64,000 nucleotides of DNA, from assembly GCA_000091205.1 (NCBI GenBank), contig AP006490.2, one strand, 5' to 3'. The position numbers and the translations under genes were made by a program. The notes under the pieces are model-generated. The model was not told the DNA's origin, ran no database searches, and worked only from the letters and a program-made list of their open reading frames with translations. The DNA is from Cyanidioschyzon merolae. Lineage: Eukaryota. Shown here in pieces: positions 15,506-62,230 of the stretch. The first letter of the stretch is position 1, and every line of letters starts with the position of its first letter.

Positions 15506-16739
15506 GAGATACAACGACTCGTACGAGGAAGGATGTGCTCGTGGATTACTTGCGACGAAACACGGAGTTCAGCGTGCTCGCTCTCAGCCTGAACTAGCAC
15601 TCTCCGCGTGTTTCCGCGGCGCTAAAACAATGCTCCAGACTAACGACTGATCATAATCATTATCAACCAGACGGCAATCCTTCGAACCGAACAGCGACAA
15701 AGTCGTTGACGCTCCAACAGGTCCTGGGAACGGCAGCAACTGCCGAGTGCTTTGCGCGACTTTGGAAGGCGCGACGCGTTCACAGAAACCGGCGCTGTAG
15801 CGTGCACCCCTCGCTCCAAGAAGAAAGTGTCAACTGCGACGCCTGGTTTGTGCGCAACCTTTTCGAGGTTCTGCACCACGAAAGAGTGCGTCTTATGCTG
15901 TTCAGAGGAAACTAGTTGCAGCAGCAGCCGCGGCAGTCGTCGGACGACAGGGTTTACAAAAAAGACGGAACTGCGACTTGTGTGCGACGCCCGCTGCCGC
16001 TCCGGTGGTGCTCAGAAAGTCGATGCGCGAGGTTGGTTCACGACGCTGCGGGGTCTGCAGGTGCTAGGCGATCTCGTATGCCGAAGAGCACCACGTCGGA
16101 TAGTAGTGCTGTCTCCAGCTGGCTCTCGCGTGGTTACCGACACACCAAGCCACTTTTTTAACGGATATGGTGTAGGCACCAGGTGACAGCGTAAACACTC
16201 GTTCGTTTGAACAGGAACACCAGCAGCACAGCTGCGCTGTGCTGTCAGGGAACCCAAGTTCCGCTCCCGTGGTGGTGCTTATCTTCATAGGTTTCCGACA
16301 CCCGTGTCAGTTAGAAATGGACCGCTGGACTACTCGCTGTGTGCCTGGTTTTCGATCTTGCGAATCTTTACTAGATATACAAGCACGACATTCACAGTGC
16401 GGCAATAATGGTATAGGAATTCATAGCTAGTTCTTCAGGATTCTTGGTCATGGTTTCCGAATGGGTTCTTCGACGTTTTGTTGCAGGAATTGCTCACGTT
16501 ACCGAAAACACGATGATTCGCGACGCCATCCAACAAGGTCTCTGACCATGATCGATATCATGATCCAATGTAAAGGTACAAGTCACAATTCTTCTCTTTT
16601 TCTCATGTGCAGTATGCTCGAATCACGCATGCCTCAACTCGTCGATGTTTGCGATACAAGGCAACTCGTAGGCACAGCAATTTGCACCGCTCGACTGACG
16701 CACGGGAAAAGCAATCGACTTCGCCCGGTGACGATTTAT

Positions 16740-20165: not shown

Positions 20166-20569
20166 GGTGCTCGAAGCGCTCGCTGACTCGCGTCGCGCTG
20201 CGGGTGATGATGCCTGCCCCCAGCGTTTGCTTCGAAGCCCTACGTAATGGAAGTGTATCACAGCAAAAGTCGTCAAGCGGAATGGGAAACGCACCAAGCG
20301 CCGTGAGATATGAAAACGTCTTCATCGTGCGGCATCAGGGAATCGAGCTTGACTCGCTCGGAAGCAGGGATCCTGATGGTTACCAGGCTACTGCACACAC
20401 GACTTGCGCTGAGGGCACCTAATCGGAATCTCGTTCTGCAGCACTAGATGCCAGATGAGGCACCTGCGTGTTTCTCAGGACGTCAAGCGTGTAGCTGTGC
20501 ACTCCACTTGAGCGTCACAGCCTCGGGAACGGTTACCGTACCCATGCGGAAAATGTTTCGGGGGTCGGT

Positions 20570-22260
20570 TCATCGACGCTGCTGACGCGGGCACGCGCCG
20601 ACGACAAAGTCGTTCTTCGGCACCTCCTGCATCGCAGGATCCGCTGCCTTGTTTTCTCCATGCCTCACCGAGGGTGGCGACGAAGACTGAACGCGACGAT
20701 CTACCTTCAAGCGCCGATAGTGTACACATATGGCTACTCCATCGGTTTCGATCATACCAGTATACCTTTTGCTTGCTCGTTTTGACACGTTGGAAATCGA
20801 AGATATATTCTTCAAGTGCGTCTCACGGCTTTCGGCGGCGAATTCTATCTTCCATACATCGAACTCCGATCTGATCTCCTTCATGATGCGGTAGAGGATT
20901 CTGGAGTCGATAGCCACAAATTGTGACTTGATGCTGCACAACGGAACGACACGGAAGTACTTACCCATTAGGGCAGCCTGCCGTTTCTCTGAATCTTCAT
21001 TTTTCCCCCTTCACCTGCCTCCATCTCCGCCTCGCGTTCGAGTTCTCGGTTCAGGAACACGATATAGCGCAGGATGAGGGGATAAAATCTATTTTCATCT
21101 GTTTTCATATATGCTACCTGTTCTGCTGGGTTGACCAGCCCCAAAACTGCACGGTGCTCTTGAATAGGCCCACGGGTTCCAGGAGCGCCATTCTTTCTCC
21201 TGTGTGATGTGCTCTCGTCGACGAATTCGATTTCCTTTTCATTCTTACTATCGTTAGTGATGCCATCGATGATGGTCCATCTTGCCCTGCGAGAGCGGCC
21301 TGGGTACAGCGCAATGATGGAGCGTACAATGAAGCGTTTGAGGTTCACGATCATGTAGTTCCTCCGGTTCTTGAAGTACTTGATCGCCGCGTAGGTGTAA
21401 ATATCCGCGTTACCCCTTATGTTGCGTACCGTCGCAGCGGTATTCGGGCTGGATTTCGTGGGGGCCATATACTTGCTCATTTGTCCTCGATGTATCCCCC
21501 GTGCTAAGCACCAGATAGCTGATGAATGTCTTGTCGAAAAATTCTTACGGAACCTCGACTGTTCTGATGTCTATCACGTCGCGATGGATCTCCTTCACCA
21601 AACGCACTAGTCATGAAGAAACCTTCTTAATAATCGATGAGTACGACTCGACAAGGTTTCTGATGCCCTGTTGGAACTTTTGCTTGCACGGATCCTTGAT
21701 ACGTCCGAGAGGAGTGGCTTTCACCACCATCTCGTCGTCCTGTTGTCGTTCGTGCAGCTCGTGACGTCTGACCTCCTCCTTTTGCTTCGTCGTCTTTTCC
21801 TGTTCCTAACTGCTCCGCTGTGTTTTTCGTTTTTTTCCGGCAACCGGCGATACCTGCCCTCCAGCATCCTGCATTTCGTTCTCCATGACATCCCCTTTTT
21901 ATTTTTGTTTTGGAAAACAACTCACTTTGAAAGCTCCTGCTATAAAACGCGAGAAACCACTTGAAAACACTAATTTGAGGGCTAAAACCCCATCGAAATG
22001 AAAGACTGTAACTTTTTATGACTTCAAGGCACATACAACTTGTGCATCAGAACAACAAGTCATTGAATGGTTAAGATCGCGTTTCCCTTCAACGGCGGCA
22101 TACGCGTCGTGTCTCATGCCTGCCAGGTCTCCCAGGTGCGCGTATCGATAAAAGACACGTGTCCGACGCCGCATTCGCACATGCGTGCTCTCACCGGCGC
22201 TCTGCGGCACATGCGGCAGCTGGTAATTTAAGAAAAACGAAAAAGCGGACATTCCCGCGC
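20570..22260 (-). pseudogene. TnpB/Fanzor-like element, family 1, copy A1: N-terminal (WED/REC-like) half only, ending just before the RuvC-I position
   Basis: ORFs 21627-22034, 20968-21480 and 20570-20968 (-) are collinear homologues of 40462-41825 (+). Shared segments include [100 protein letters not shown] and [30 protein letters not shown]. There is a TAA where copy B2 has Asp, and an indel in a G-run at ~20990. Homology stops at ...DFVVGA. Confidence 0.6.
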
Positions 22261-23760
22261 GGATGATCTGAGCTTACAGACTTTCAATTCTATTGCGTTT
22301 CGCCCCCGCTGCAGTGTATATGAGGACGTCGAAATAACTGTGCAACTTACCGTATATATCGTAGGTAAATTGTCTGCAGGATATATTCATTACTGAACAG
22401 CTCATGGAGGACTGCGTTCATCCTTCAGGTCAGTCGCACAATAATACGCAGATGGTTGATGAACACTGAAAGTAACAAGTAGGTAAGCACCGCACCAAAA
22501 ACTGGTATTCTCAAAGACTGCTAGCGATCAGTGGTAGAGAGCGACTCTTCGCTCACCGTACGGAAAGTTGGAGCGACGATAGAAGCCACTGCGACCGTCT
22601 CTGTTTCTCAACAGCTTGTTCACATTGCCCTGAAAACGCTGGGATACATTCGCAAAAGAAGACTCCATTCATTCACGGCCACCTTCCACCGGAATTGTAA
22701 CGACAGCGCTCCGGGTACCCAGCGATCGGTATGAAGCACAGGGTCGCCGGGTTTGCTTTTCCATTCGTTGAGACTTTCTTCGGACGCAACGGTCGGAGTA
22801 TGTATGGGTATTCGCGAAGCAGGGCCCCCGTTGTAAATACGATCGAAATCGAAGAGAACGAGGATATCTTCATCAGTCTTAGCTGCAGTGGATTCATTTG
22901 ACGGCCTCAGTTTCGCACCTACGGAAGGCGCATACAACAGAACCCTCTTCGTCGGATCATCGAAGACTTTTCTCAGACGTCTGGTGACGTCCTTCGATTC
23001 CACAATGTTGCATTTCACCATTCCCCTTGCATTCGAGTTTTTACTGAATCTTTCGGGATAGAGCTGCTTTCCATTCCTCCGTGCGCTCCTTGATTCAACG
23101 CCATCGAGGGAGCATTTTGTATCGTGAAACGTAATGATCGCTTTCCTTGCCGAATCGCTGAAGCGTCCGGCGTACGGTGCCACACCAGGGGCGCATTTCG
23201 TCTTTTTTCCACACGTCCTTCTCTGTCCATGCAGGTTCTCACCTTAGTGCATCAAGAAGTGTGTTCGTTTTGAAGAAATACAATATCCAAGAGATTAGCT
23301 GGGGTGTACACTCCAGAAGGTCGAGATAGAGAGTGGCCAGCGAAGCGCTTCGGCGATAGAAAAGCACGAAGAGGTGGCAGAGCAGCAAACGGCACAGAGA
23401 GAACCTGTTCGAGGAATCTTTGCATTAGTGCGTCCAACCAGAGGCAATCAACGTACGGAGTTCGTGGACCAAGACTTCAACGCCGTCATCCATATCAAAC
23501 GATGCGTGGTGCGGATGACGAGATTCGCGGACCTGATACGATCCAACTTTATGGGCCAGCCGCTCAGGCTCAACGTGTACAAAGAGAAATTGGAATCGAT
23601 AGCAGGGGTCCGGTCTTTAACGACTGGGAGGCGTCTGCACGTCGGTATTCATTTACCCTCCATAACTGTGAAACATTTAGTGTTTCACTGACTCTACAGA
23701 AGACGGCAATGGACTTGGGCCTGTGTCCCCTTAAGGATCGATTGCATTGAAGCATGGGTC
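22260..23760 (+). pseudogene. TnpB/Fanzor-like element, family 1, copy A2: 5-prime-truncated unit carrying the C-terminal RuvC-III region; head-to-head with A1
   Basis: Nucleotide-collinear with 38170-39600. ORF 23374-23691 carries RTEFVDQDFNAVIHIKRC (RuvC-III-like, Asp at 23473-23475) and a conserved tail ...RSNFMGQPLRLNVYKEKL. Frameshifts relative to copy B2. Confidence 0.55.
23374..23691 (+). pseudogene. RuvC-III-bearing C-terminal fragment of family-1 TnpB/Fanzor-like gene (copy A2)
   Basis: Shows EFVDQDFNAVIHI, which fits the TnpB DRDxNAAxNI pattern. Confidence 0.5.
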
Positions 23761-29558: not shown

Positions 29559-32500
29559 AAGGTATTGGGGCCAGTGTGCTATTCGAGGCTGGGGATTTCA
29601 CCGTGAGCTGTGATACTCGTCTCCTGGAAAAGGTACCAGAGCGTAAACGATACGTTCGCGCGAGCACCGCAGCCTCGCCTGTTTTTGACGAATTATACAA
29701 AATACCGCTCCCTGAATCAAAGGAAAAAGTCGCCGGATAAATACACCGAAGCAGTGCCTTTAAATATCAAGAGTAAAGGAAAAGATCAGCTTGCTTTTCA
29801 GACCATGAGACTCGAAAACTGGTGTTCCGTACGTTGCGGCGAAGCGAAACGCAGTGGCACCGCACGCGCACGGACTGCGGGGCGAACTTCCGCGGAGTAC
29901 GTGCGCACCATGCCCAGAGCCAGTTGTAGACTTGATCAATCCAAGGCGTTTTTTCACGAAGCAGGCTGAAAATTTTCTCCTGATGCTATCCTTAATTTGA
30001 TTTGTGGCAGCGTGCTTGCATATAGCGGTTGCATCCAAGTGGTGCACAACACGGTTTATGTTTCCTTGGGTTGCGGAGCTGCGCTGGCGTTGTGGCGCGC
30101 TCGGTTGCTTTCCTCAGCACGAAACTTCGAGAAACAACTCAAAACGCCGTATTGTCAGATGAAAAAAAAAAGCAGCAACATGGGCTTGTCGAGCGCCTGG
30201 ATTGAGTCCGCTCTGTCATTTTCGTCGCTGTGTTTAGACGATGCAGGGCCGAACGTCATTGGAGTGAGAAGAGCCCTCCGACGATGACATTGCGACTGAT
30301 GCCGCGAACTTGTGTGCGACATCGCCTACTCCGCTCCCGAGCGCGCCATAAAATCCTGAATTTCTTTGGAATTTGTGCTTGTGAATTGCACGTGGGTAAA
30401 AGCGCTGTGTCGAGGCCCAGGTTTTCCACAGCGGAGGTGCAGTGCAGGCACACCCAGGACCCGTTGTTGCTTGCGAAGCCACGCGCAGAGCATTCGGTCC
30501 ACTCCAGATGCCGGCACGTTTGCACTCTGCTGAATGCAGTAGGAGGAAGGCGCAGCTGACTCGGCTCTTGTCATGCAAAGAAACGATTCTTGGGGTGTCT
30601 CTGAGAGACGGACACGCATGCTCTGTTCTGCGTATCTTGCAGTGTGGTGTCTGATGCTCTGGACAGCGCATGATGCAGTATCTCTACCAGAATGCCTTTA
30701 TCGCCTTTCGTCGTTTTGTCGCAGGTATCCAACAGAAGGAATGTATCCTGTAGATTGTGGACAGGTGGAGGACGGACTTTTGTCTGACGCAGCTGGCTTG
30801 CAAAAAACCGTCTTAGTTGTACTATTCAGTAACTCTGAGCTCAGCAGGTGAACGCGCCGCCTTGCTCGTTGTCCTCGTTCTGAAAATGTCAAATTCGAAA
30901 CGTAACTTGTTTAATTCTGTCTCCGGGACTGTTTCCTCGTAACTCCAGTCCGATTCGTTTTTCTCAAAGGAATACGACAAAAGAACTTGCAGGATGGAAA
31001 GTTTTTGGACTGTTGATTCGAATCGTGATGACGAGCCGCGGATGCACAAAGGAACAGGTGCGCTTCCCAGGAGACGATTGTACCTTAAACAGCATGGAAT
31101 CGACTTGGAACTAGGAACGGAAACGCATACGACGCAAGGGACAGGTGTTCATCCCGCTCGATTATTGGTCATTTGGGAGAATTCTGCGACCGATATACGC
31201 GTATCCGAAGCGACAGAGACCTTGTCCCGTCAAGAGGAGACAAGCGAGCGTGATGCCAATATCAGCGCTGGTGGTCATTGAAACGGGTGGTCGCCTACCA
31301 GTCGCCAGATGGACAGAATCATTCTACACCGCATGCTTCGTCGAAGCACCTCTTGGACTCTTCTCAGCCGATTCCTCTGCCCTTGCCTCAGACAGTGTCG
31401 CTTTCCATCACTCAAAAGAAGTGAAGGAGCGCGCAGCTGACCCTGGCTTTAGGACGCTCTTCGTGTCAGTCTTTTCTGCCCCTGATGGAATCCAGTCGAA
31501 TGCGATTTGTCCGTCGTTACGCGCCGTTTTGGTGCCCAGGGATCAATCGGCATTTCGTTCGCATCCGTAACACCGTTCTTCGATCAGTGGCTCTCTATTG
31601 TCGGGAGCCCTGGGCTGCCCTGCTACCTCTCTACCCAACCGCGGGAGCCAGTGGAGAGCAGCGCTTCGGTCCATGGGCTTGCTCGCGACAGAGAAAGGAA
31701 CAAAAGTACCTGAGGAATCGTCAATAGGTGCATATACGGAAAAGGCGAGTTTCAGGCGCAGCATCAATCCATTGCGTCTAAATTCCGGGGAAAGAGATTG
31801 CGTAGCGTTTAGCGAACACATCCATGATAACACGCAGGTAAAGGAGATGACAAAGACATCGATGAACTCTGTGAGCAGCGATGGAGCATGAGCGCGACCT
31901 TGCGTCGAGCCGTGGCAGAACTCGTTTAAGGTTTCTCGGTTACCGGGAGAAAATACAAAAAATTTACAGGTTCGATGGAGATCACCAGAATATCAATCTG
32001 CTCGCACTTTGTGACATCTAGGCCTGTATCGGGCAGCGCGACTTATTTTGCAAACGTTCAAGGTAGATGAAGTGAAAGACTTGGTCGTGGGGATGCATTC
32101 CGGGCCGAAAGCGCGAAACTGCCGGTGCGGTATCCCAAAGTCGTGAGGAAGGAGCCAAACCCCTGAACGTAAACCAGAGGGAGCTATCCAGCATTTGCAT
32201 TGCCCGGTATGATCGCGAGTTGGGCATCACGGATGCGCGAAGGCATAGCAAGGAGTGGAATGATGGCATCAGGGCCTCGTTCGTATGCTCTGAGCACCGT
32301 ATCGAGCTAAGAGGTACGCTGTGTACGATTCATTCAGTGGGCACAAGGCATGTCCATGGCTCATGTGGACGAACTTTGGTTGAAGCATATAGGACGGCGC
32401 TGGGGTCACCAACGCTTGCGGTTGGACAGAGACAGGAGGCACGCACTCGCGCCCTTCTTCGATGAGCTGGAAACCGACTTGACCGATACCTGGCGTTGTT

Positions 32501-33985
32501 TCGTGAGAGCGCATAGCGCTGGACGGGCTGTAGCGTGCAAACGCTGCACTCCTGGTTTCATCGACGAGGTCCTCTAACGAGTGCAGGAATCAATTCTATT
32601 CGATGCCCATCGATGTGTTCACGACGACGCGTATGCGTTAAGAGTCCGAATGCAGGCTGAAACCGCAATACTAGAATAGCACGAAACACAGCCGGATGCG
32701 TTGGATGGTGCGTGATACACGCAGCAAATTTCTGATGGAGAGGCAGTCGCAGATGAGCCGCTTGCCACGGTGTGATGCCGCAAACCACCACGCGTACAAG
32801 CACTATCTGCATCCAGACTCGAGCGCCGCGATCAACATCCGGAATTGTCTCGAGCCTCGGCAGCGTCCAATGACTTGGCGAATTTTCGAGCGAATCGTTT
32901 CGTGCTCACCGTTGGCACTATGCTGAGACGCCGCGGATCGTAGAAGAAAAGATTAGTCATCAAGAAAGGCAGGCTTCGATTCTCGCCCACAGCTCGACAA
33001 TGCCATGGTACCGTCCAGCGATCCAGCAATGCTCGAGCGCCGCCCATATGTACACGAACCTCAAGGGCAAGTGGTGAAAAACAGCAGTGTCCTGGCATTC
33101 GAAATTAGTCAGTATACGCGGATCCTCTGGGATGATATTACCTGTGTTGACGATAATGCTGGATGAAAAACGAGTGCACCAGCGAGAGAGAACGATCATC
33201 ATGCATACGCACGGAAACGCAGTACCGCAAGGCACAGCGCTTTTCTACCGACGTGTCGTCGATCACGGGTAGACCTTGACCTAGCCAACGGGTGCTAGCG
33301 TTGCCTCCAGTCCAACCAATTCGTCACCGAAAATACCGGGACTTGGCCTCGTGCAAGCACTGAGAGTCACTTGGGGCTAGCATTGACCGCGAGCATGTTC
33401 ACGACCATACCGCATTCCTAGAGTGAACGATGCCTGCTTGAATGATCTGTTCTCTAAAATCTACCTCCCTTGTACTCCATCAACGAAACTGGTCCCTACT
33501 TCTGTATGTGTTCTTCTCTGTCAATCTTCGACTCGTATCCAGCTGCTGACATGAATGCAGTTGCGAACACAGGCAGAGTGCATGCGACCCAAGCCCGCTC
33601 GCTGCCGCATGCTCGTTCGCTTCGTCATCATCATCATCAGCGACATCGACATCAGCCTCTTGACACGACCTACAGGCTTCTACACTGAACCTGGTGCCGT
33701 TGTTGCACGGTGCTGGCCTAGTGGTGTTCCCGAGTATATCGGGGCGTGCTTGCATTAGTACCTTTTTAACTGCGCACAAGCCCGTGAGAGGCCCGGCGCT
33801 GTCGCCATAGACGCACGACACCTGAAACGTCCAGTCGAGAGCACGTCGTGTGACAAGTGCTCAGAGCGCTGCTCGCGAGGTTGATGTTTGGTCTTGACCT
33901 GGCCAATGTCTCCTCTTTGTGTTGCTCAGCTTCGATCAGTGCATGGATGATGCTTTTCGTTCGAGTCATGCGTATGGTGTATTGT

Positions 33986-36619: not shown

Positions 36620-39149
36620 AATGCGTCCAATTGTATGCACTGCATTGCTTGTATTTATCGTCACATAACGTGACGAGTTACGCAGGAGTTTTCGCCACGT
36701 GTACCCGGGTATGTTTGGGCCGGATACCCGGAGACCGCACTTTGCTTGTATTTCACGGTATATATTGAAAGATGGAGGGCGATGCGCGGAGCGCTCCCGG
36801 AGTCGTAACTACATTCATTTCGCGGACTTGTTGTTGGTGTCATGAAACCGCTTCAGGTCAGTTGCCGCATGCCTGCGGACGACGTGTCGCTCGGGTGGTT
36901 GCCCGAGTAGCGCCGCGATACGCCCGCTCCTGGTGCGCATCGCCAGTGGAGGCGTTTCCATTTGGGTTGTACTCCTGCTCGAGTGATCCACGGCGATGAC
37001 AGGTATCCAAAGTGCTCACGTAAGAGTGACTTGCATGGATGAATGATGATGGTGAAGTGCTGCGATGCGTCGGAAGCACCGTTGTCCGTCTGAATCGTGT
37101 GCGCTGCTTTCGTTCTGGCTGGAGCGGAATGATCTATTTCGGGAAGGAATACGCGCAGTATCGCTGGGGCCGCTGCAGACCTCGCTTCGATAGATGCTGG
37201 CGCGTTACTTGCGTTTTCTTGTACGACATACCCGAGAATACTTTCGATGCTGCAACGTCGAAGACGTAGAAATGCTGCAGCAACTATTCGTGTTGCTGTT
37301 GCTGTGTAGGCGTCTTTGTGTACAGCCAGGCTTGTGCGCCCGTGTTCGTCATCGTCGATCGAGGCATGTACACAACCATTCTTTTGGACCAAACGCTCCA
37401 CTTATGTGACGGGTACCGATCCGAGCAAGGATTCCTGGAAGCATGTGCGTGCATACGCGGGCTCTCTTCCGGTCTCGTGACCAGACGGTCGTCCAGTGGG
37501 ATGCTGGTACCGCAATCAGCGCCGCAGTGCTTGCGAGCGGCTCGCATGCATCCAAACTCGTTCGCCGTTCACGATATCATGCCATGGTGCGATGGAAATT
37601 AATTCTTCATCGTCTTCAATACGGCTAGGAATTAAGCTGGGGTACGGATACGCTGCTGGCGAGCGCGTTTCAGCGGACGTTTGGCTCACACGCTGACGCT
37701 GCTCATTCAACGGTACATGTGCCCGACGCGCCTGCACTCGCGACAGCGGCGCGCTGTAGCGAGCGGCTTGCCACGAGATGCCAAGTCGCGCACAGCAGTA
37801 GAACGCTGACGTGCTGCAACGACTCGTAGACGCTGGGCCCGCGCATTCGCCCTGCACCGTCGTACCAGAGCAGGCGCAGGGACGCGTCCGGATGCAGGGT
37901 GTTGAACGTACGAGCGTTTTCCAAAAATATACAGAAATGTTCCGTTTGTGCTAGATGAACAAGGAATACCAGGCGTGTACTGTCGCCCGATCGGTGCTTG
38001 CGAGCCACATCCAGTAGGGAAAAAATGTACATAAATGTGCTGTATTGTCTAGACACCCTGATGACACTTGGCATGCCCGCTGCCTCGTTGCCATTTGGAC
38101 CGGGAAGCGCGGAACGGCGGGCGCGCAGACACCATGCCTTGCCCGCCTGGCATCAGCGCTAGCAGCGCAGGTGCGGGTGACGTCTTTGAACTCGAGTATG
38201 GTCTGCCGCCGCTTTCTGCAATCGAATGCATTTTCGCATTGTATACCATTAGATCGAAATGAGCATGCCGTGTACCGAACAGAACGTAGACATGTTGCCT
38301 GCAGAAAATGTTCTGCAATGAACAGTGCAACGAGGACTGCATTCTTCACTCTATTCAGTCGTACTGCAGTGCTCTGATGGTTGAGGAATATTGAAAGAAA
38401 GAAGGATATGCGCTCCGTGCCAAAAAAGATAGGCTTAAAGACTGATTGCGTTCAATCGTGGAACAACGATGCGTTCATCAACTTATGGAACGCAAAATCG
38501 ACGATAGCAACGGCAACGAGTGTCTCCGGTTCTGATCAGATTGTCCATGTTCTATTAAAAACACTGGAACACAGTCCCAAAAATACTTCTGTTTCACGCA
38601 CGGGCATCTTCCACCAAAGTCGTGACGATAGCGTTCCTGGAACGTTACGATCGGTATGAAGCGCAAGGACGTAGGGTTATGTTTTCAGTCGGTGAGACTC
38701 GCTTCGGACGAACCGTTCGGAGCGTATACGGGAATTTGCGGAGCACGGAGCCCGTTCTATGCACGATCGAGCTCGAAGAGAAGGCTCATACATCAGCACT
38801 CACTCTCTCGAATCAATGAAGGATTTTGCCGGACGTCTGACGACCTTGCTCTACTGGACAACGTCGCATTTCACCATTTCCCTTCGCTTTGGAGCTTTTT
38901 GCCGATGCAGTCGGGGTAGAGCTGCTTTTCATTTATGTGCACGCTTCGTGGTCGAACCGCATCAAATGAGTTGTTTCTGTCATGAAACGTAATGATCGCT
39001 TCACTGGTCGAATCCCTGGACCATTCAGTATAGCGTGAAACACTGGGACACTAGTCGTCATTCCTGCGCAAGTCCGTCTCCGCCGGGAAGGACCTCACCA
39101 AGGTCCATAAAGAAGTGCGTTCACTATGAAGAAATAAGAAATCCAAGGG

Positions 39150-39524
39150 GTGAGCTGGGGTGCAAAGTCCTGCAGGTCGAGATGGCTAAAAAGCAGCGGA
39201 GCCCTGATGATATATAGAAAAGTATGGAGCGCTGAGAGAAGAGGAAACGAAGGGATGGCGCAAGTTCGAGGACTACTCGCACTGGCGGGTTTAAGCGGCG
39301 AGGGCAATAAACACGTGGAGTTCGTGAACCGAGACTTGAAAGCTGCTATCAATATCAGGAGATGCACGGTGCTGGAATGGAGACCTCCGGAGCTAACACG
39401 ATCCATCTCTGTAGGACAAACTTTTAAGGTGGAATTATACGATAATGTGTTGAAATCAGTTGTAGGCGGCCGGTCCAAGACGACGGAAACACGTCTGTAC
39501 GTCAGTCGGAGACGTTTTGTCTAG
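39150..39524 (+). pseudogene. RuvC-III-bearing C-terminal fragment of family-1 TnpB/Fanzor-like gene (copy B1)
   Basis: Shows FVNRDLKAAINI, i.e. the DRDxNAAxNI pattern with Asp and NI conserved. Confidence 0.55.
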
Positions 39525-39600
39525 GGCGCTGGTCGCCTGCTACTGTACACCGTTGGCGTCGTTCGACTTTAGAACGGCGTTTGTCGTTCGTGTGCAGTCG
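39525..39600 (+). ncRNA. candidate OMEGA/guide RNA scaffold tail (conserved structured 3-prime non-coding segment of family-1 element, copy B1)
   Basis: About 65 nt immediately after the stop are conserved with 42919-42985 (ggcgctggtcgcctgctactgtacaccgttggcgtcgttcgactttagaacggcg vs ggcgggtcactcgccactactgtatacggtcggcgtcgttcgacttgcgaacggc). They contain two hairpins (ggcg-loop-cgcc and cgttcg-loop-cgaacg) whose loops differ between copies. Similarity stops abruptly after ~65 nt. Confidence 0.25.
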
Positions 39601-41860
39601 TCGATGTACGGGTTAGGCTCTCGAAACTAATCGTATAGAGTAGACCTGAATACAGTACGCGCTTTTGTCAAGTGCCTCGATCGTGCCAGGCGAGATGCAA
39701 GGCTCAAACCTCATGGCAGACATGGACGCTACCTGTGTGCACTGCCTCTGCCAAGATCGCCGGATCCGGAGGACGAAGCAGGCACCATAACTTGGACAAC
39801 GACAGCAGCATGGAATTGAATTGAACTGCCAGCAGTTCCAGAACATAACACGGGATAGAAGCAAAATTCAGGTCAGTTCCTTAATCCGGCGTCCGTGCGG
39901 CATGCATAAGAAGCATAGGGATGAAACGTATATCCGTGTTCAGGAACACCACCGTACGTTGTTTGGTTACGATCAATAAAACTAACGAAATTCCTAATGA
40001 GTAGAGCGATGCACACCTCATCCGCACGAGCGTAGGATACTACGATGGCTACGCTTTTGATTGAAGCGTCGAGAGGAATCGTGTCAGGCGCCTGCATCCC
40101 CTTGTATGTCAGGGCGGTACTGCGATGGGCGGGAGCGTCGGCACCAGCGACATAGCCTATAACAGGAGATCGTTCTGCGTGAGTTTCCGATCTAGGACAC
40201 TTGCTTTCCGCTGCAGCGCGATGCGAACACGCATGTGCCAATGCGGGGTGTCGGACACGTGTCCTTCATCGATCGGTGAGGCGTCTCGCGCGGTGCACGC
40301 ATCGCGCTCGGTGAGTGCACCTCGTAGATCGGGCAGTCAACTGACACGATGCGCATGCCGCCGTTGAAGAGTAACGCGATTGGGATCAGTAGCGTGTAGC
40401 TGTAACGTAAAAGCTGGATTTCAGGTGAGGTCTTAGCCAAGTACAGTCTTTCAGTTCATTTTTGTTTCAGCCCTCAAACAAGTGTATTCAAGTGTTTTTT
40501 TCGCAGTGTATAACAGAAGCGTTCAAAGAGCGTTCTTGTTCAAAAAAACTAAAAAAGGAAAGATATGAAAAAGCAAGTCGACGATCCTGGAGGCACAGGG
40601 TCGCCGGCTGCCAGAAAAAAAAACAAAAATCAGTACCGAGTCCAGAGGAAAAGGAGGAGAAGAGGAAGGACCGAAATGGGGAGGTCCTACGTCGAAGGCG
40701 ACAAGAAAGACGACTTTACGACCAGATGGTGGATAAAAGCTGTCTTCTTAAACATATCTATGATCCCTACAGGGAAAAGTTGCGAGACGCTATCAAAGAA
40801 CGTGTTGCGTCATACTCGAAGAGTATTGTCAAGGCGTCATCAGGACTAGTGCATTTGGCGAGGGAGATGTATCGCGACGTGGCGCACATGGAAACGGTCG
40901 AGATTCCGGACGAGTTTTTCGACAAGACCTGTATTCGTCACCTGATGGTTGGTAGCGAGGAAGCGCGGAGGGAAAATATGCTATTGCATGCCCTGCACGA
41001 AAACATCGCGGAATTCTGCTTCGAGGGTACCCCATTCAGGGGTGACCCGGATATTTACACATACGGGGCGATGAAGTACCTCACGAACCTGAAGAACCTT
41101 TTGACAATGAACCTGGACCGTTTCGTAGTACGCGCCGTATTTTTGTGCTCTACCCGCGCGTCTCTCGCAACGGGATATGGACAATTTCAATGCCATCACG
41201 AAAGATCGTAAGCATGAATATGAGGTCGAATTTGTCGACAAGAAGCCGTCACGCAGGAGAGCAAATGATGATTCCGTCATCCGTTTGGTCATACAAGAGC
41301 ACCGTGCGGTACTGGGGTTGGCGAATCCAACAGAAAGGATATCAGAGTTAAAAAACGATAAGGAAAGATACGATCGCCTCATTCTGCGGTATTTAGTGCT
41401 TCTAGACCTAGAACTTGAATGCAAGGCAGAGATGAAGCTGAGTGGGGAAAAATGAAGAGTGGGAGAGACGGAAGGCTTTCCTTATGGGTAAGCGCTTCAA
41501 CGTCGTACCAGTGTGCAACATCAAGTCGCATTTTGTGACCGTCGACTCCATAGTCCTTTACAGCATCATGATGGAGATCAGTCCGGAGTTGAATGTTAGC
41601 AGGGAGGAGTTCACCGGCGAAAACCGGGAGACGTACTGGAAGAGCATCTTCGATTTCAAACGTCTCAAAGTAAGCAAACAAAAGGTATTCACTGGGATGA
41701 TCGAAACCGATGGAGTAGCCATGTGTGTACACTCTCGGCGGTTGAAGAAAGATCGTCCTGGCCCGCCTTTGGCTTCGCCCGTGACGAAGGATGAAGAAAA
41801 CAAAGAGGAGGATCCTGCGATGTAGGAGGTAGTGGGCAACAACGTTGCCGTTGACGTGAC

Positions 41861-42010
41861 GAAGTATGAAGATGAGAAGGAGGCGGAACCTGCGACGCAG
41901 GAGGTGGAGGATAACGACCTTGTCGTTGCCGCGGCGAAGTATGAAGATAAGAAGGAGGCGGATCCTGTGATGCAGGAGGTGGAGGATGACGACTTTGCCG
42001 TTGGCGCGGA
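41861..42010 (+). repeat. 75-bp tandem duplication (x2) inside the family-1 copy B2 coding sequence
   Basis: Encodes [25 protein letters not shown] followed by [24 protein letters not shown]. Copy A1 has a single unit. Confidence 0.7.
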
Positions 42011-42487
42011 CCCCGGAAACACAAATATCATCACCATCGCAGCACCGAAGCGTGCGGAAGATGGTACTGGCGGCAACTTACGCCAGAAAGACATGTGACT
42101 TTTGAGGTTCTCGAGCGCGAAATACTATCGAGAATCGGGAATAATGAATGCGAGGAAACAATTCGAGATATGGTATGCAGGAGTGAAAGCGCATTTGAAG
42201 CGATCAGCCAGGTGACGAGCCGTGGAACGAACTTTGAAGCTTTTCGGATATTCGTGAAAGTTCGTGTTGCCCATTTGGAGGCGCTGTGGAAAGAGTATAT
42301 AAAGCCCAGATGGGCTCGTTTGCGTATGAATCTGTACTGTGGTAAGCAGCGTGCGTTCGCGAACTTTTTCAATCATTTGAGCACCCTGAAAGAGGACAAG
42401 ACTCAAAGGCTCGAAGTAGCGTATGGGGAGGGGCGCTGGCTCACCCAAAAAGGGTACACACCAGTTCCAACGACAAGAACTTACTAG

Positions 42488-42790
42488 GAGTGCGCAAGGC
42501 GTTTCGTTACGGTACCGATCGATGAGTTTCGAACATCGTACACACACCACGAGCTGGGGTGTACACTTCAGTGGGTCGAGATGGAAAAGTGTCAGCGGAG
42601 CTCTGAAAATACAAAAAAGTACGGACCGCTGACGGAAGAGCAAATGGAAAGGAGGGCGAAAGTTCGAGGGCTACTCGCATTAGTAAGTACAGTCAGTGGC
42701 AAGAAACGTATCGAGTTTGTGAATCGTGACTTTACCGCAGCTATCAACAGAACGAGATGTGCGGTGATGGAAGGTAGACCGCCAGACTAG
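42488..42790 (+). pseudogene. RuvC-III-bearing C-terminal fragment of copy B2 (in the same frame as 42095-42487, separated only by TAG at 42485-42487)
   Basis: Shows ECARRFVTVPIDEFRTSYTHHELGC...KRIEFVNRDFTAAINRTRC. Confidence 0.6.
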
Positions 42791-42918
42791 ACAAGAGAGA
42801 ACTTTGTTGGACAACCTCTCAAAGTGGAATCATATGAGACAAACTTGAAACAAGTAGTAGGTGGCCCGTCGAAACAGACTGGCACGCGTCTGCACTTCAG
42901 TTGGAGCCGTTTTGACTA

Positions 42919-42990
42919 GGGCGGGTCACTCGCCACTACTGTATACGGTCGGCGTCGTTCGACTTGCGAACGGCATTCTCTAGCGGTGCC
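42919..42990 (+). ncRNA. candidate OMEGA/guide RNA scaffold tail of family-1 copy B2
   Basis: Conserved with 39525-39590 and carries the same two hairpins; it lies at the right end of the element, directly upstream of the VAMP gene. Confidence 0.25.
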
Positions 42991-43037
42991 AGCTTTTAAA
43001 CGCGCTCGAGTCGAACGGAAACTCGATTTGAGAAACC

Positions 43038-43799
43038 ATGGGAGACGCTGGTGCGCCCACTTCGAGTGACAACGTTCCGAACCTGCTGTACTGCGCTATT
43101 TGTCGTTGGGAAGACCGTGTGGTCCTTGCTCGGTACGCTGCGCCCCGGGCAGGAGTCGCACTCGCTGAAACCGGTGCGAGCACCGCCGCCTTCGCGGAGA
43201 CCCTAAGACGCATTCTCCAGTCGAAAAAGATAGCCGAGCACAAGCGCTTAACCATTGAAGAAAAACAACTGGGAATGATCCACTACGACAACGACGGTAC
43301 CTGCATGTACGTGGTATTCTGTCGCGCGTCGTACCCGCAGCGCCTTGCGTTCCAGTTCCTGAACGAGCTGCGGTCGGAGTTCTTGCGCACAGTCGGTAGT
43401 CGCCCTGAAGACGTCGCTTCTGCGACCGAGAATAGCTTGACGAAGCTGTGTCGGCCGTTGATGAGCGAGCTCTGTACCCTGTACGATACGCCTTCGGGAC
43501 TGGATAAGATGTCGCGGATTCGCATGCAGGTCGAGGAGGTCAAGGGCCACATGCAGGACAACATCCACCAAGTTATGAAAAACACCGACGACTTGGAGCA
43601 GCTACAGACGCAGTCGGAGGGTCTGCGCGGGGAGGCAAGTGCTTTCCATCGTTCAGCTGGCACCGTGGAACGCAAGTACTGGTGGAAGAACGCTCGGATG
43701 ATCTGCGTTCTCGTCGTGCTCGTGATACTCATCATTATCGCCATCATCGTTCCGATTATTGTGACACGAAATAACAACAGCAGCAGCTCCTCTGGTTGA
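43038..43799 (+). CDS. longin-domain R-SNARE (VAMP7/synaptobrevin-like)
   Basis: Shows an N-terminal longin fold (LLYCAICRWEDRVVLARY...), an R-SNARE heptad region with the central Arg (HQVMKNTDDLEQLQTQSEGLRGEASAFHRSA) and a C-terminal TM (MICVLVVLVILIIIAIIVPIIV). ATG at 43038. Confidence 0.85.
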   Translation: MGDAGAPTSSDNVPNLLYCAICRWEDRVVLARYAAPRAGVALAETGASTAAFAETLRRILQSKKIAEHKRLTIEEKQLGMIHYDNDGTCMYVVFCRASYPQRLAFQFLNELRSEFLRTVGSRPEDVASATENSLTKLCRPLMSELCTLYDTPSGLDKMSRIRMQVEEVKGHMQDNIHQVMKNTDDLEQLQTQSEGLRGEASAFHRSAGTVERKYWWKNARMICVLVVLVILIIIAIIVPIIVTRNNNSSSSSG

Positions 43800-60737: not shown

Positions 60738-61059
60738 GGTCGCCAGCAGACAGCCGCACCAAAGTACACGGCCTCGGAATAGCGCTCACCCCCGAGTGAT
60801 AGGACTGGTGGAATTCGCGCGATTGCTCCCGCGCTCGCCGCGACATCGACGCGCGTGGACACGCCACCCGGGGGTCCAGGGACGGTCGATAGTAGCGCCT
60901 TGTCGTTTTTTTCTTATCGTTACACCGGGGTTAGGTGAGCATGGGACATTGAACAGCTCGCTCTATTTATGTGTTGAGCATGTTTCTCCCACCTTTTTAT
61001 TAGGTACACGGCGTTGACACTCGAAGTGGATCAATTAGGGTGTGAGGAATCGTAGGTAG

Positions 61060-62230
61060 ATATGGGATTCCTGGTCGTATGTTCGGAATGGCTCCGTCGA
61101 CGCTTTGCAGCTGGAACTCGCGACGTTCCTGGAATCCGGGTGATTCGCGACGCACTCGAACAAGCATTCGTAAAAAAACCGATATCATTATCAGATTCGT
61201 ATTTGCGGGCCTCTACTGTTCTGCTCTCCTTACGTATTGCATGCTGCAATTACGAATCCGCCAAGTTGTCGATCTCTGTGTGTCAAGGTAACTTGTGGGG
61301 GCAGCAGTTCGCACTGCTGATCCAACGAGACAAAGCTAGGCGTCTTGTTTGGCGGCTTGTCCACAAGCACAGATCGAACGTTCTCTGAACTTGACACATC
61401 AAGGAATCGTTATCGTTCGCAAGGCAAATCCTCCTCGCCTAGCGAACATCAACGAAACAGTATTCGACGTGGGCACGATACCTCTGAAAGGATATGTTTC
61501 GAGTGACTTCTGTCTCCGCTGTTTGCATGGAGAAGGGTCCTGGACGTATAGTTGAGTTATCGCGTGAATCGCTTCCAGTGCGGAGTCTGTCAACGCTGTG
61601 AACGCAGAAAGCGTGCAGGGTTCACAGCGTCTCGACTTGCTCTAGTACCTGAATCGTTCATCTGGGTCTTGTTTCATCATGGGAACCAACGCGTTCCACA
61701 AATCCTCTATCGAAAAGGAAGGCTTGCACTTGCATGTGCAGCACGCAGCGTACTTGCCGAGGTGATCGTCCAGAAAAAGCCCTTAATCATTGGACACGGC
61801 ATCGGGCACTGAAACGCATGAGAGCATCGAGGGTAGCCCTCTGTACCCGTCAAGGGCATATACCGAGCGATGAAGCGAGCGTACACGCTCCACTGGTCAA
61901 CGCCTGGAATAGCAGGCGGCCTTATGGGAGTATGGGGAAATCTGACGCGAATGAAGTGTCAGCACTGAGCACAGCGCACCGAGACAGTGTTTGAAAAAGA
62001 TGCAAATGGCAAGCGAGGCGTAGATCGCCATCACCGCCAGTGCATGAAATGCGTCGACAACGACAGGAAACTGCAAAATTGGGACTTGCACGCCAAAACC
62101 AATATCCTTCAACTGCTGGCAAAGGAGCTGGAGCGACCGGAGAGACCGGCATTTTGAACGCCAGAGATAAGCGTGTTGGGAATGAAGCAATGGCAGGAAA
62201 AATCCGCAATTCCTGTCGTTGATGACAATA
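61060..62230 (+). pseudogene. compact TnpB-like element, family 3, copy b (~400 codons in three frames)
   Basis: ORF 61349-61555 carries the RuvC-I-like ETVFDVGTIPLKGYVSSD (cf. TnpB AAGVDVGIKDFAIVTDG; Asp at 61466-61468). ORF 61552-61812 carries CGVCQRCERR...QILYRKGRLALACAARSVLAEVIVQ (the helix plus RuvC-II region, cf. DFLHKL...E). Frame 61969-62160 carries RQCMKCVDNDRKLQNWDLHAKTNILQL (the RuvC-III region; Asp at 62083-62085). A conserved 3-prime tail runs to ~62230. Confidence 0.55.
61969..62160 (+). pseudogene. RuvC-III/zinc-finger C-terminal fragment of family-3 TnpB-like gene (copy b)
   Basis: Shows CMKCVDNDRKLQNWDLHAKTNILQLLAKELERPERPAF, homologous to 53485-53637. Confidence 0.5.

What the first reader, a model, noticed from the sequence alone, without database searches (positions are those of the whole stretch)
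40100..42990. Near-full-length Fanzor/TnpB-like (OMEGA RNA-guided nuclease) gene in a eukaryotic nuclear locus
Reading the five or six collinear ORF pieces together gives a ~770-aa protein with the TnpB/Cas12 RuvC signature in the right order and spacing. RuvC-I is [18 protein letters not shown], which sits where TnpB has GVDVGIKDFAIVTDG. The helix before RuvC-II is ARLRMNLYCGKQRAFANFFNHL. The bridge to the zinc-finger position is RRFVTVPIDEFRTSYTHHELGC, which sits where TnpB has the TSQxCSxCG block. RuvC-III is IEFVNRDFTAAINRTRC, matching DRDxNAAxNI. The size, the long N-terminal extension and a degenerate zinc finger fit eukaryotic Fanzor proteins rather than bacterial TnpB. The copy is inactivated by only two TAG codons and a few 1-2 nt indels, so it is evolutionarily young. 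The locus is AT-richer than the flanking host genes.
Basis: partly seen in the sequence, partly recalled or inferred. Interest (0 to 1): 0.85.

Follow-up and report, generated by a model that had tools for sequence, protein, structure and literature searches.

The report
Dead Fanzor1 transposon copy, already described

Summary
Window 40565-42919 (+) is a collinear, broken reading frame for a 784-codon Fanzor1 protein.

- **Family:** Pfam and single-sequence PDB searches find nothing. A profile of the wider family hits only the three solved Fanzor1 proteins (E 1.5e-19 to 1.5e-5). An AlphaFold model of the closest intact relative (66% identical, pLDDT 79) matches only Fanzor1 structures (E about 1e-16, TM up to 0.73).
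- **Host:** seven flanking reading frames are exact matches to annotated proteins of Cyanidioschyzon merolae 10D.
- **Prior description:** Bao and Jurka (2013), the paper that named Fanzor, already describe this family. They call it CMe-1A: about 150 copies, about 3 kb, no terminal inverted repeats, an old family.
- **Age:** the copy is not young. It has 4 premature stops, 5 frameshifts and 12% nucleotide divergence from the family consensus.
- **Zinc finger:** the CCCC zinc finger of solved Fanzor1 proteins is missing.
- **Other copies:** the window holds four further fragments of the family.
- **Still open:** how the family moves. It has a constant 3' end with a hairpin, several alternative 5' modules, and copies that abut each other's 3' ends.

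Verdict: already known, low interest.

The parts
39601..42996 (+). Complete 'long-form' CMe-1A-type element, about 3.4 kb, with no terminal inverted repeats
   Evidence: Continuous homology of about 80% to L063/L076 and L010 starts at 39601 (TCGATGTACGGG...). The 3' ends of 34 non-redundant copies stop aligning shortly after GAACGGCG + TTTGTTG. No inverted repeat joins the two ends. The length and the lack of inverted repeats fit the published CMe-1A description.
39601..40299 (+). 5' non-coding module of the long form, probably the part that Bao and Jurka equate with the separate element TE-N2_CMe
   Evidence: At about 40300 the common body is joined to at least four different upstream sequences in different copies. 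This module is present in full or 5'-truncated in 11 loci. The paper says the 5' 635 bp of CMe-1A equal TE-N2_CMe. I made no direct comparison with the Repbase sequence.
40300..42996 (+). Common body of the family: a short 5' leader, the Fanzor1 reading frame and the 3' terminal block
   Evidence: More than 17 loci start homology at 40299-40301. A majority consensus of 35 copies is 2690 nt long and contains one intact reading frame.
40565..42919 (+). Fanzor1 pseudogene: 784 codon positions, 5 frameshifts, 4 premature stops, natural stop TAG at 42917-42919
41780..42004 (+). Three tandem 75-nt repeats that encode an acidic linker just before RuvC-I. The repeat number varies between copies.
   Evidence: family D1; alignment shows 1 to 5 or more units. 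The segment is predicted disordered in the model, with pLDDT below 50 for P0001 residues 374-470.
42003..42023 (+). RuvC-I motif GADPGNT, holding a catalytic Asp
   Evidence: This Asp is invariant in the 48-sequence family alignment (D484 of P0001). It aligns with the IDPNK motif of SpuFz1, whose D383 coordinates magnesium.
42419..42439 (+). Canonical RuvC-II position (AYGEGRW), with Gly where classical TnpB has the catalytic Glu
   Evidence: Substitution of this Glu by Pro or Gly is the rule in Fanzors (PMC10530073).
42518..42538 (+). IDEFRTS, holding the alternative (rearranged) RuvC-II Glu
   Evidence: E656 of P0001 is invariant. It aligns with LLDEYKTS of SpuFz1 and LIDEFRTS of PpFz1. SpuFz1 E541 is an active-site residue.
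42719..42742 (+). RuvC-III motif VNRDFTAA, holding a catalytic Asp
   Evidence: D725 of P0001 is nearly invariant. It aligns with WNRD of SpuFz1 and PpFz1. SpuFz1 D606 is catalytic.
42920..42996 (+). 3' terminal non-coding block: hairpin GGCGGG/CTCGCC (42920-42934), single-stranded ACTACTGTA, hairpin GTCGTTCG/CGAACGGC (42954-42974), then a G/T-rich, A-poor tail. It is a candidate right end and the 3' part of an omega-RNA scaffold.
   Evidence: Present in every copy that reaches the 3' end. Two hairpin variants (CGTTCGA/TCGAACG and CGTTTTTC/GAAAGGCG) and the L017/L029 change G-C to T-A keep the pairing. The first 15 nt after the hairpin are depleted in A. No Rfam match, and RNAalifold gives no covariation support.
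38217..39600 (+). Separate, older family member: an internally deleted derivative made of about 930 nt of its own 5' module plus the last roughly 150 codons and the 3' terminus of the Fanzor element. The main copy abuts its 3' end directly.
   Evidence: 39152-39581 is 73% identical by BLAST (77% mean column identity in the alignment) to 42551-42977. 38273-39408 is collinear with 22348-23548. The 5' module also precedes a divergent full-length copy in L057.

Best explanation
Window 39601-42996 is an inactivated copy of CMe-1A. This is the multi-copy transposable element of the red alga Cyanidioschyzon merolae that encodes no transposase, and its only gene encodes a Fanzor1 protein.

**What is shown.**
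- The ancestral gene encoded a 784-aa protein with a basic, NLS-like N-terminus, a long helical REC-like region, a variable acidic linker and a RuvC nuclease domain.
- The RuvC domain has the Fanzor-type rearranged triad: Asp in DPG, Gly at the canonical Glu position, an alternative Glu in DEFRTS and Asp in NRD.
- Sequence profile and predicted fold place it with the solved Fanzor1 nucleases SpuFz1, PpFz1 and GtFz1.
- This copy is dead: 5 frameshifts, 4 premature stops and 12% divergence from the consensus.

**What is inferred by analogy with SpuFz1 and TnpB.**
- When the family was active, the protein bound an omega-RNA transcribed from the 3' end of the element. That RNA would have included the conserved roughly 75-nt block after the stop codon, with its two hairpins.
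- The protein used the adjoining guide to cut matching DNA next to a short target-adjacent motif. This helped the element persist or spread.

**What remains unknown.** The enzyme that actually moved the element is not known. The element has no transposase gene and no terminal inverted repeats.
For: **The reading frame is real.**
- tblastn with the intact 752-aa relative P0001 covers the whole region at 65-73% identity, E = 0.
- A database search with the repaired protein gives 38 hits, the best at 66% identity over 95% of the query.
- The consensus of 35 copies restores a single 784-aa reading frame.

**It is Fanzor1.**
- A 48-sequence family profile hits only Fanzor1 chains in the whole PDB: PpFz1 at 1.5e-19, SpuFz1 at 1.6e-12 and GtFz1 at 1.5e-5. 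The DPG, DEFRT and NRD motifs align to theirs.
- The AlphaFold2 model of P0001 has pLDDT 79.4 and pTM 0.77.
- Foldseek against the PDB puts SpuFz, PpFz and GtFz at ranks 1-7 (E 1.9e-16 to 4.5e-14, target TM up to 0.73). The next hits are Cas12 proteins at E of 3.5e-3 or worse.
- D484, E656 and D725 are invariant or nearly so.

**Host.** Seven flanking reading frames are exact C. merolae 10D proteins, among them BAM79832, BAM79839 and BAM79843, on a 739,753-bp record.

**It is a multi-copy transposable element.** 371 related stretches were found in a handful of metagenomes, and four further fragments lie in this window.

**Prior description.** PMC3627910 lists one Fanzor1 family in C. merolae, CMe-1A: about 150 copies, about 3 kb, about 80% identical to the consensus, no terminal inverted repeats.
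Against: - Pfam finds nothing significant in the repaired protein or its relatives. The only match is a sub-threshold Cas12f1-like_TNB hit at E 0.23.
- The CCCC zinc finger present in SpuFz1 and TnpB is absent, so nuclease competence of even the ancestral protein is untested.
- The structure was predicted for the relative P0001, not for the window copy itself.
- I could not measure the distances between the three acidic residues.
- The omega-RNA is not demonstrated. There is no Rfam hit, RNAalifold gives essentially no covariation term, and the 3' block is no better conserved than the coding sequence.
- Identity with the Repbase CMe-1A consensus rests on matching the published description, not on a sequence alignment.
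Confidence: 0.93

Rival explanations
1. The locus is a live gene. On this view the apparent frameshifts and stops are introns, programmed recoding or assembly errors.
For: The pieces are collinear and all three catalytic motifs are intact. Bao and Jurka note that some CMe-1A copies still encode intact proteins.
Against: - Four in-frame stops and five 1-2-nt indels are spread over 2.3 kb.
- Each lesion is specific to this copy relative to the 35-copy consensus.
- Changed codons are 81 synonymous against 152 non-synonymous, close to neutral.
- No gene is annotated between BAM79838 and BAM79839, inferred from the accession order.
- From my own knowledge, the C. merolae 10D genome is a finished sequence and has very few introns.
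Confidence: 0.02
2. The protein-coding part is dead, but the copy still matters as a 'ghost' locus. Its intact 3' terminal block would be transcribed into an omega-RNA whose guide is the flanking DNA just upstream of the synaptobrevin gene, and this RNA would be used in trans by an intact Fanzor1 encoded elsewhere.
For: - Both 3' hairpins and the terminal tail are retained in this copy.
- S. punctatus has 134 ghost loci with ends but no Fanzor gene, proposed to supply guides in trans (PMC10432273).
- Internally deleted derivatives that keep only the 3' end exist here, at 38217-39600 and 22348-23700.
- One nearly intact paralogue, P0001, exists.
Against: - No expression data.
- The whole family is old, at 85-91% identity to the consensus.
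- The best paralogue lacks the last roughly 35 codons, and no ATG-initiated full-length frame was found among 82 loci.
- The 3' block is not preferentially conserved.
Confidence: 0.08
3. It is a bacterial or organellar TnpB (IS200/IS605 or IS607) acquired by recent horizontal transfer or present through contamination, and not a eukaryotic Fanzor.
Against: - No hit to Pfam TnpB models.
- The PDB profile search returns only Fanzor1 chains, not TnpB or Cas12f.
- Structural hits to Cas12 and Cas12f are at least 11 orders of magnitude weaker than those to Fanzor1.
- The protein is 784 aa with a long REC-like N-terminal half.
- The element is embedded between exact C. merolae nuclear genes, and many diverged copies exist.
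Confidence: 0.01

Closest known systems
CMe-1A, the Fanzor1 element of Cyanidioschyzon merolae (Bao and Jurka 2013, Mob DNA 4:12, PMC3627910)
   Same: - Same host genome.
- Single Fanzor1 reading frame.
- About 3 kb against 3.4 kb here.
- Many old, diverged copies.
- No terminal inverted repeats.
- A separable 5' part of about 635-700 nt.
- No recognisable transposase.
   Different: Nothing that conflicts. My consensus, built from 35 copies, gives 85-91% identity per copy against the published 'about 80%'. I made no direct alignment with the Repbase consensus.
SpuFz1 of Spizellomyces punctatus (PDB 8GKH; Saito et al. 2023, PMC10432273)
   Same: - Fanzor1 fold, with Foldseek E about 1e-16 and target TM of 0.70-0.73.
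- The same active-site residues align: D383, E541 and D606.
- Single-gene element without a transposase, present in many copies together with protein-less derivatives.
   Different: - SpuFz1 is about 640 aa, and its element is 2.1 kb flanked by 30-nt inverted repeats. The C. merolae element has none.
- SpuFz1 keeps a CCCC zinc finger. The C. merolae protein has only THHELGC...KC and has lost the second Cys pair.
- Sequence identity is only 13-15%.
- The C. merolae protein has an extra variable acidic repeat linker.
CRe-1, CRe-2 and CRe-3, Fanzor1 elements of Chlamydomonas reinhardtii (non-autonomous Helitron2; Bao and Jurka 2013)
   Same: - Fanzor1 is the only gene.
- Copies almost always keep the 3' end, while the 5' ends are truncated or carry foreign sequence.
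- A short conserved 3' terminal block.
   Different: - The Chlamydomonas genes have 5-10 exons. The C. merolae reading frame is intronless.
- The Chlamydomonas elements share their ends with verified Helitron2 elements and insert after TTTT. No Helitron partner, no asymmetric terminal inverted repeat and no target motif could be shown here.
ISDra2 TnpB (IS200/IS605 OMEGA nuclease)
   Same: RuvC-I, RuvC-II and RuvC-III in the same order. The guide RNA is encoded at the 3' (right) end of the element, which has subterminal hairpins and no inverted repeats.
   Different: - TnpB is about 400 aa, has the canonical RuvC-II Glu and a CCCC finger, and travels with a TnpA transposase.
- No sequence-level hit to TnpB was obtained.

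Membership tests
Fanzor1 (eukaryotic TnpB-superfamily RNA-guided nuclease) | Significant sequence-profile similarity to established Fanzor1 proteins | tested here: met
   A family profile that includes the window's close relatives P0001 and P0005 hits only PpFz1 (1.5e-19), SpuFz1 (1.6e-12) and GtFz1 (1.5e-5) among 177,635 PDB sequences. The single sequence and the shallow profile found nothing.
Fanzor1 (eukaryotic TnpB-superfamily RNA-guided nuclease) | Fanzor1 three-dimensional architecture (WED, REC, RuvC and NUC domains) | tested here: met
   The model of P0001 (66% identical to the repaired window protein) has pLDDT 79.4. Foldseek ranks 1-7 are all Fanzor1 structures, with E 1.9e-16 to 4.5e-14 and target TM of 0.51-0.73. 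The test was made on the relative, not on the window copy.
Fanzor1 (eukaryotic TnpB-superfamily RNA-guided nuclease) | RuvC-I Asp and RuvC-III Asp in conserved motifs (DPG and NRDxNAAxN) | tested here: met
   GADPGNT at 42003-42023 and VNRDFTAA at 42719-42742. The residues are invariant or nearly so in the family and align to SpuFz1 D383 and D606.
Fanzor1 (eukaryotic TnpB-superfamily RNA-guided nuclease) | Rearranged RuvC-II: canonical Glu replaced by Gly or Pro, with an alternative conserved Glu downstream (Jiang et al. 2023) | tested here: met
   AYGEGRW has Gly at the canonical position, and the Glu of IDEFRTS lies about 30 residues downstream. That Glu is invariant (E656). The rule is stated in PMC10530073.
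Fanzor1 (eukaryotic TnpB-superfamily RNA-guided nuclease) | CCCC zinc finger in the NUC (TNB) domain, as in SpuFz1 and TnpB | tested here: not met
   Only THHELGC(x10)C remains. The second CxxC pair is replaced by LLALVSTT. The feature is absent in the whole clade consensus. It is structural rather than definitional for Fanzor1.
Fanzor1 (eukaryotic TnpB-superfamily RNA-guided nuclease) | Cognate omega-RNA encoded at the element's end, with an adjacent guide | tested here: inconclusive
   A terminal block of about 75 nt with two hairpins is present in all copies. There is no Rfam family, no covariation support from RNAalifold, no excess conservation and no expression data.
Fanzor1 (eukaryotic TnpB-superfamily RNA-guided nuclease) | RNA-guided DNA cleavage activity | not testable with these tools
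   Needs biochemistry. This copy cannot be active because it has 9 disabling lesions.
CMe-1A element family of C. merolae (Bao and Jurka 2013) | Resides in the Cyanidioschyzon merolae nuclear genome | tested here: met
   Seven window reading frames are exact matches to C. merolae 10D proteins, among them BAM79832, BAM79839 and BAM79843.
CMe-1A element family of C. merolae (Bao and Jurka 2013) | About 3-kb element with one Fanzor1 reading frame, many old copies, no terminal inverted repeats, and the only Fanzor1 family listed for this species | tested here: met
   The element is 3.4 kb (39601-42996). 371 related stretches were found. Copies are 85-91% identical to the consensus. No terminal inverted repeat was found. 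The paper's table lists one family for C. merolae.
CMe-1A element family of C. merolae (Bao and Jurka 2013) | The 5' 635 bp are shared with the independent element TE-N2_CMe | tested here: inconclusive
   A separable 5' module of about 700 nt ends at 40299.
CMe-1A element family of C. merolae (Bao and Jurka 2013) | Sequence identity with the deposited CMe-1A consensus | not testable with these tools
   Repbase is not among the collections.
Helitron2-type non-autonomous element (considered for the mode of mobility) | Ends shared with a Rep/helicase-encoding Helitron2, an asymmetric terminal inverted repeat, and insertion after a T-rich tetranucleotide | tested here: inconclusive
   A constant 3' end with a hairpin and variable 5' ends resemble the Chlamydomonas CRe elements. 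No partner Helitron, no asymmetric inverted repeat and no consistent upstream target motif were found.

The most novel reading that the evidence does not exclude
The published account leaves the classification of CMe-1A and TE-N2_CMe unknown. The end structures seen here suggest a mode of movement.

**Observations.**
- The 3' terminus is invariant: a hairpin followed by a G/T-rich tail.
- At least five interchangeable 5' modules join the body at one point, about 40300 (four, a fifth).
- Many copies are 5'-truncated.
- All three full-length long-form copies examined (the window copy, L010 and L063/L076) start exactly where the 3' end of another family member stops.

**Reading.** The family may spread by a one-ended, 3'-end-anchored replicative mechanism (Helitron2- or IS91-like rolling circle, or read-through co-mobilisation). 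Alternatively it may insert site-specifically next to its own 3' terminus. Either would classify a Fanzor1 carrier that has stayed unclassified since 2013. It would also link Fanzor1 once more to single-strand (HUH-type) transposition.
Probability: 0.25. Interest if true: 0.35.

Novelty: already known. Interest (0 to 1): 0.15.

Why it matters
It matters little as a discovery. Fanzor proteins were first reported in 2013, and this very family in this very genome is in that paper. Their RNA-guided nuclease activity was shown in 2023.

The check has three modest uses.
- It shows that a reader working from raw sequence can recognise a Fanzor1 remnant that Pfam misses entirely.
- It gives an intact 784-aa consensus for a Fanzor1 clade that lacks the zinc finger. 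That protein could be resurrected and tested.
- It records end structures that may help classify CMe-1A.

Tried and rejected
- **Pfam.** Scans of the repaired protein, of P0001, P0005 and P0038, and of ten diverse full-length relatives found no significant family. The precomputed PF26935 (DUF8286) is only a weak hit.
- **PDB by sequence.** phmmer with the repaired protein, and hmmsearch with a shallow 18-sequence profile, gave only noise. The search succeeded only after the profile was widened with representatives.
- **First structure prediction.** The shallow alignment gave a useless model with pLDDT 32.
- **Omega-RNA evidence.**
  - RNAalifold on 34 3' ends gave a weak consensus with no compensatory pairs.
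  - Rfam found nothing.
  - The conservation profile along the element is flat at 0.8-0.88, with no peak at the 3' end.
- **Retrotransposon idea.** I considered that the family is moved by a LINE. The grounds were 5' truncations, upstream partial copies, and a group-2 5' module whose reading frame contains CPCCRDEIPETLTYLGLQCPRW, which looks like a LINE ORF2 C-terminus.
  - The module's reading frame has no Pfam hit.
  - There is no poly-A.
  - The upstream 'truncated copy' at 38217-39600 turned out to be a distinct, internally deleted family member that also occurs at 22348-23700. It is not a template-jump product.
  - The idea is not excluded, but it is unsupported.
- **Spacer idea.** I considered a 13-20-nt 'spacer' (a possible transduced guide) between abutting copies. 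Aligning more 3' ends showed that those bases belong to a weakly conserved, A-poor tail of the upstream element.
- **Target-site duplications.** I did not pursue these systematically, because copies are 10-15% diverged from the consensus. The 2013 paper also failed to find them.


Full report
**1. What is in the sequence**

On the + strand between 40565 and 42919, six frame segments read collinearly into one protein.

tblastn with the best database relative, P0001 (752 aa), covers the whole stretch at 65-73% identity with E = 0. A search with my first repaired draft gave 38 proteins, the best at 66% identity over 95% of the query.

I aligned 35 non-redundant genomic copies and took the majority base at each position. 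This gives a 2690-nt consensus with a single uninterrupted reading frame of 784 codons, MKKQVDDPGG...SWRRFV*.

Against that consensus the window copy shows:

| Feature | Value |
|---|---|
| DNA identity | 88.0% |
| Protein identity | 80% |
| Frameshifting indels | +2 at 40615, +2 at 41140, -1 at 41187, -2 at 41445, -1 at 42197 |
| In-frame 3-nt indels | two |
| Premature stops | TAG 41823, TGA 42096, TAG 42485, TAG 42788 |
| Natural stop | TAG 42917 |
| Changed codons | 81 synonymous, 152 non-synonymous |

The region is indeed lower in G+C, at 0.50 against 0.57-0.60 in the flanks.

**2. What the protein is**

Simple searches fail.
- Pfam reports nothing for the repaired protein, for its close relatives or for ten distant relatives.
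- A single-sequence search and a shallow-profile search of PDB sequences return noise.

An exhaustive HMM search of 1.84 billion representative proteins found a large family. There were 1465 representatives at E of 1e-3 or better and 245 at 1e-30 or better, many of them 600-700 aa long.

I built a 48-sequence alignment from P0001, P0005 and 46 of these representatives. Used as a profile against all PDB sequences, it returned exactly three sequences, all Fanzor1:

| PDB protein | E-value |
|---|---|
| Parasitella PpFz1 | 1.5e-19 |
| Spizellomyces SpuFz1 | 1.6e-12 |
| Guillardia GtFz1 | 1.5e-5 |

In those alignments the family's invariant residues line up as follows:
- the Asp of DPG with IDPNK of SpuFz1
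- the Glu of DEFRT with LLDEYKTS of SpuFz1 and LIDEFRTS of PpFz1
- the Asp of NRD with WNRD

In the SpuFz1 structure, D383, N385, E541 and D606 coordinate the two magnesium ions (PMC10432273).

With the same alignment, AlphaFold2 gave a confident model of P0001, with pLDDT 79.4 and pTM 0.77. Foldseek against the PDB placed SpuFz, PpFz and GtFz structures at ranks 1-7 (E 1.9e-16 to 4.5e-14, target-normalised TM up to 0.73). Cas12i, Cas12X and Cas12f followed at E of 3.5e-3 or worse.

The protein has Gly where classical TnpB has the RuvC-II Glu (AYGEGRW). It has a conserved Glu about 30 residues downstream (IDEFRTS). This is the 'rearranged catalytic site' that Jiang et al. describe for Fanzors (PMC10530073).

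One expected feature is missing. The CCCC zinc finger of SpuFz1 and TnpB, which the aligned PpFz1 sequence also keeps, is reduced to THHELGC...KC, and the second Cys pair is gone. This holds across the whole clade.

Two caveats apply.
- I could not measure the distances between the catalytic residues.

**3. Where it is**

The window's long, uninterrupted reading frames encode typical eukaryotic nuclear proteins:
- Prp8
- a nucleoporin (Nup133-type domains; annotated as similar to nucleoporin 155kD)
- RanBP1
- a cyclin
- a ubiquitin hydrolase
- a mitochondrial carrier
- a longin-synaptobrevin SNARE
- a class II-type photolyase
- an organelle-type gyrase B

An exact-sequence look-up shows that seven of these reading frames are identical to annotated proteins of Cyanidioschyzon merolae strain 10D. 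Among them are BAM79832, BAM79839 and BAM79843, on a 739,753-bp record.

The element ends about 41 nt upstream of the start codon of the synaptobrevin-like gene BAM79839.

**4. It is a known family**

Bao and Jurka (2013, PMC3627910) introduced the name Fanzor. Their paper lists one Fanzor1 family for C. merolae, CMe-1A:
- about 150 copies
- each about 80% identical to the consensus
- a consensus about 3 kb long
- target-site duplications undeterminable
- no terminal inverted repeats
- the 5' 635 bp 95% identical to a separate element, TE-N2_CMe (about 70 copies)
- classification unknown
- some copies still intact

Everything I measured fits this description:
- a 3.4-kb element at 39601-42996
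- a separable 5' module of about 700 nt that ends at 40299
- no inverted repeat joining the ends
- hundreds of diverged copies
- only one nearly intact paralogue among 82 loci

The 371 related stretches come from a handful of JGI metagenomes. In the metagenome collections the host proteins cluster at 90% or more with the 10D proteins. So these stretches are the same family in Cyanidioschyzon populations.

I could not align the copy to the Repbase consensus itself.

**5. Anatomy of the element and its neighbours**

*The 3' end.* It is constant. After the stop codon come:
- a short hairpin (GGCGGG/CTCGCC)
- the conserved stretch ACTACTGTA
- a second hairpin, 8 bp in this copy (42954-42961 with 42967-42974)
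- TTTGTTG-like bases
- about 14 weakly conserved, A-poor bases

Two hairpin variants and one G-C to T-A exchange keep the pairing. However, RNAalifold finds no covariation, Rfam has no match, and the block is no better conserved than the coding sequence. Its role as the omega-RNA end or right end therefore rests on analogy alone.

*The 5' side.* It is heterogeneous.
- More than 17 loci begin homology at 40299-40301.
- Upstream of that point there are at least four different, individually repeated modules. A fifth precedes the divergent copy in L057.
- Long-form copies are variably 5'-truncated, starting at 39672, 39735, about 39860, 40063, 40087 and about 40250.

*Abutting copies.* All three full-length long-form copies begin exactly where another family member's 3' end stops. 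These are the window copy, L010 and L063/L076.

In the window, that upstream neighbour (38217-39600) is not a random fragment. It is an internally deleted derivative. It has its own 5' module of about 930 nt joined to the last roughly 150 codons and the 3' terminus. It is collinear with a second copy at 22348-23700.

*Other family remains in the window.*
- An N-terminal half on the minus strand at 20561-22208.
- A heavily decayed RuvC half at 32091-32869.

A constant 3' end with variable 5' ends is what Bao and Jurka reported for the Chlamydomonas Fanzor1 elements. They assigned those to Helitron2. I found no Helitron partner, no asymmetric inverted repeat and no target motif here, so the mode of movement stays open.

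**6. How it most likely worked**

*Shown.* The ancestral gene encoded a Fanzor1 with a complete rearranged RuvC triad and a Fanzor1 fold. This copy cannot make that protein.

*Inferred from SpuFz1 and TnpB (PMC10432273).*
- The protein bound an RNA from the element's 3' end.
- It cut DNA that matched the adjacent guide, next to a short motif.
- This favoured retention or copying of the element.

*Unknown.*
- Whether a Fanzor1 without a zinc finger is active.
- What the guide and the target motif are.
- Which enzyme moved the DNA.

**7. Verdict**

Interest is low.

The only open thread is the unclassified transposition mechanism of CMe-1A and TE-N2_CMe. The end structures noted here give leads on that, not answers.

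Noticed in passing
window 38217-39600 (+) and 22348-23700 (+): Two copies, about 68% identical, of an internally deleted derivative of a divergent Fanzor subfamily. Each has a 5' module of about 930 nt fused to the last roughly 150 codons plus the 3' terminus. It is a protein-less element that keeps the family's 3' end, comparable to the 'ghost' loci of S. punctatus. The same 5' module precedes a full-length divergent copy in L057 (2927-3927).
   Followed up: partly
window 20561-22208 (-): The N-terminal half (residues 6-419 of P0001, 47-58% identity) plus the 5' leader of another family copy, cut off just at the RuvC-I motif. It lies head-to-head with the element at 22348-23700, about 140 nt away.
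   Followed up: partly
window 32091-32869 (+): A very decayed RuvC half (residues 482-742 of P0001, 25-32% identity, many stops). It is either a much older insertion or a different Fanzor1 lineage.
   Followed up: no
window 39600/39601; L010 about 1047; L063 about 2976 and L076 about 2974: Every full-length long-form copy examined (3 of 3 independent loci) starts with TCGATGTAYGGG directly after the 3' tail of another family member. In two of the three, exactly 21 nt separate GGCG from TCGATG. This suggests insertion next to the family's own 3' end, or co-mobilisation.
   Followed up: partly
position equivalent to window 40300 in L004, L013, L021, L025, L034, L040, L041, L049, L069 and others: The common body is joined at one point to at least four unrelated upstream modules, each of them repeated.
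- One is about 1135 nt long and ends in TTCTAAA or GAAAAAAAG. It contains a 247-codon frame with CPCCRDEIPETLTYLGLQCPRW, which has no Pfam hit.
- A 200-nt piece of that module recurs in inverted orientation near many other copies.
   Followed up: partly
window 41780-42004; homologous positions in P0001, P0007, P0011 and P0016: A 75-nt (25-codon) acidic repeat just before RuvC-I varies from 1 to at least 5 units between copies. It is predicted disordered. It is an expandable linker inside a nuclease gene.
   Followed up: no
window 42975-42996 and the 3' flanks of 34 copies: The first 15 or so bases after the terminal hairpin are strongly depleted in A and rich in G and T (for example TTTGTTGTTGGCGGTGTGAGC). 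It is unclear whether this is part of the element, a target preference or a guide-related feature.
   Followed up: partly
window 16298-17276 and 61000-62169: Two mutually related (about 65% identical) non-coding repeats that also occur in about ten of the fetched loci (L001, L005, L008, L020, L029, L037 and others). They are another degenerate repeat family of the host, with no recognisable reading frame.
   Followed up: no
window 42996-43038: The element's 3' end lies only about 41 nt upstream of the ATG of the synaptobrevin-like gene (BAM79839). The gene's promoter or 5' leader must therefore lie within or read through the element.
   Followed up: no
L001 6001-8259, L003 and L004 (protein P0001): This is the best-preserved paralogue found. 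It has an open frame of 778-819 codons with all catalytic motifs. It stops about 35 codons before the consensus end, and the called product starts at a non-ATG codon. It lies head-to-head with a second copy.
   Followed up: partly
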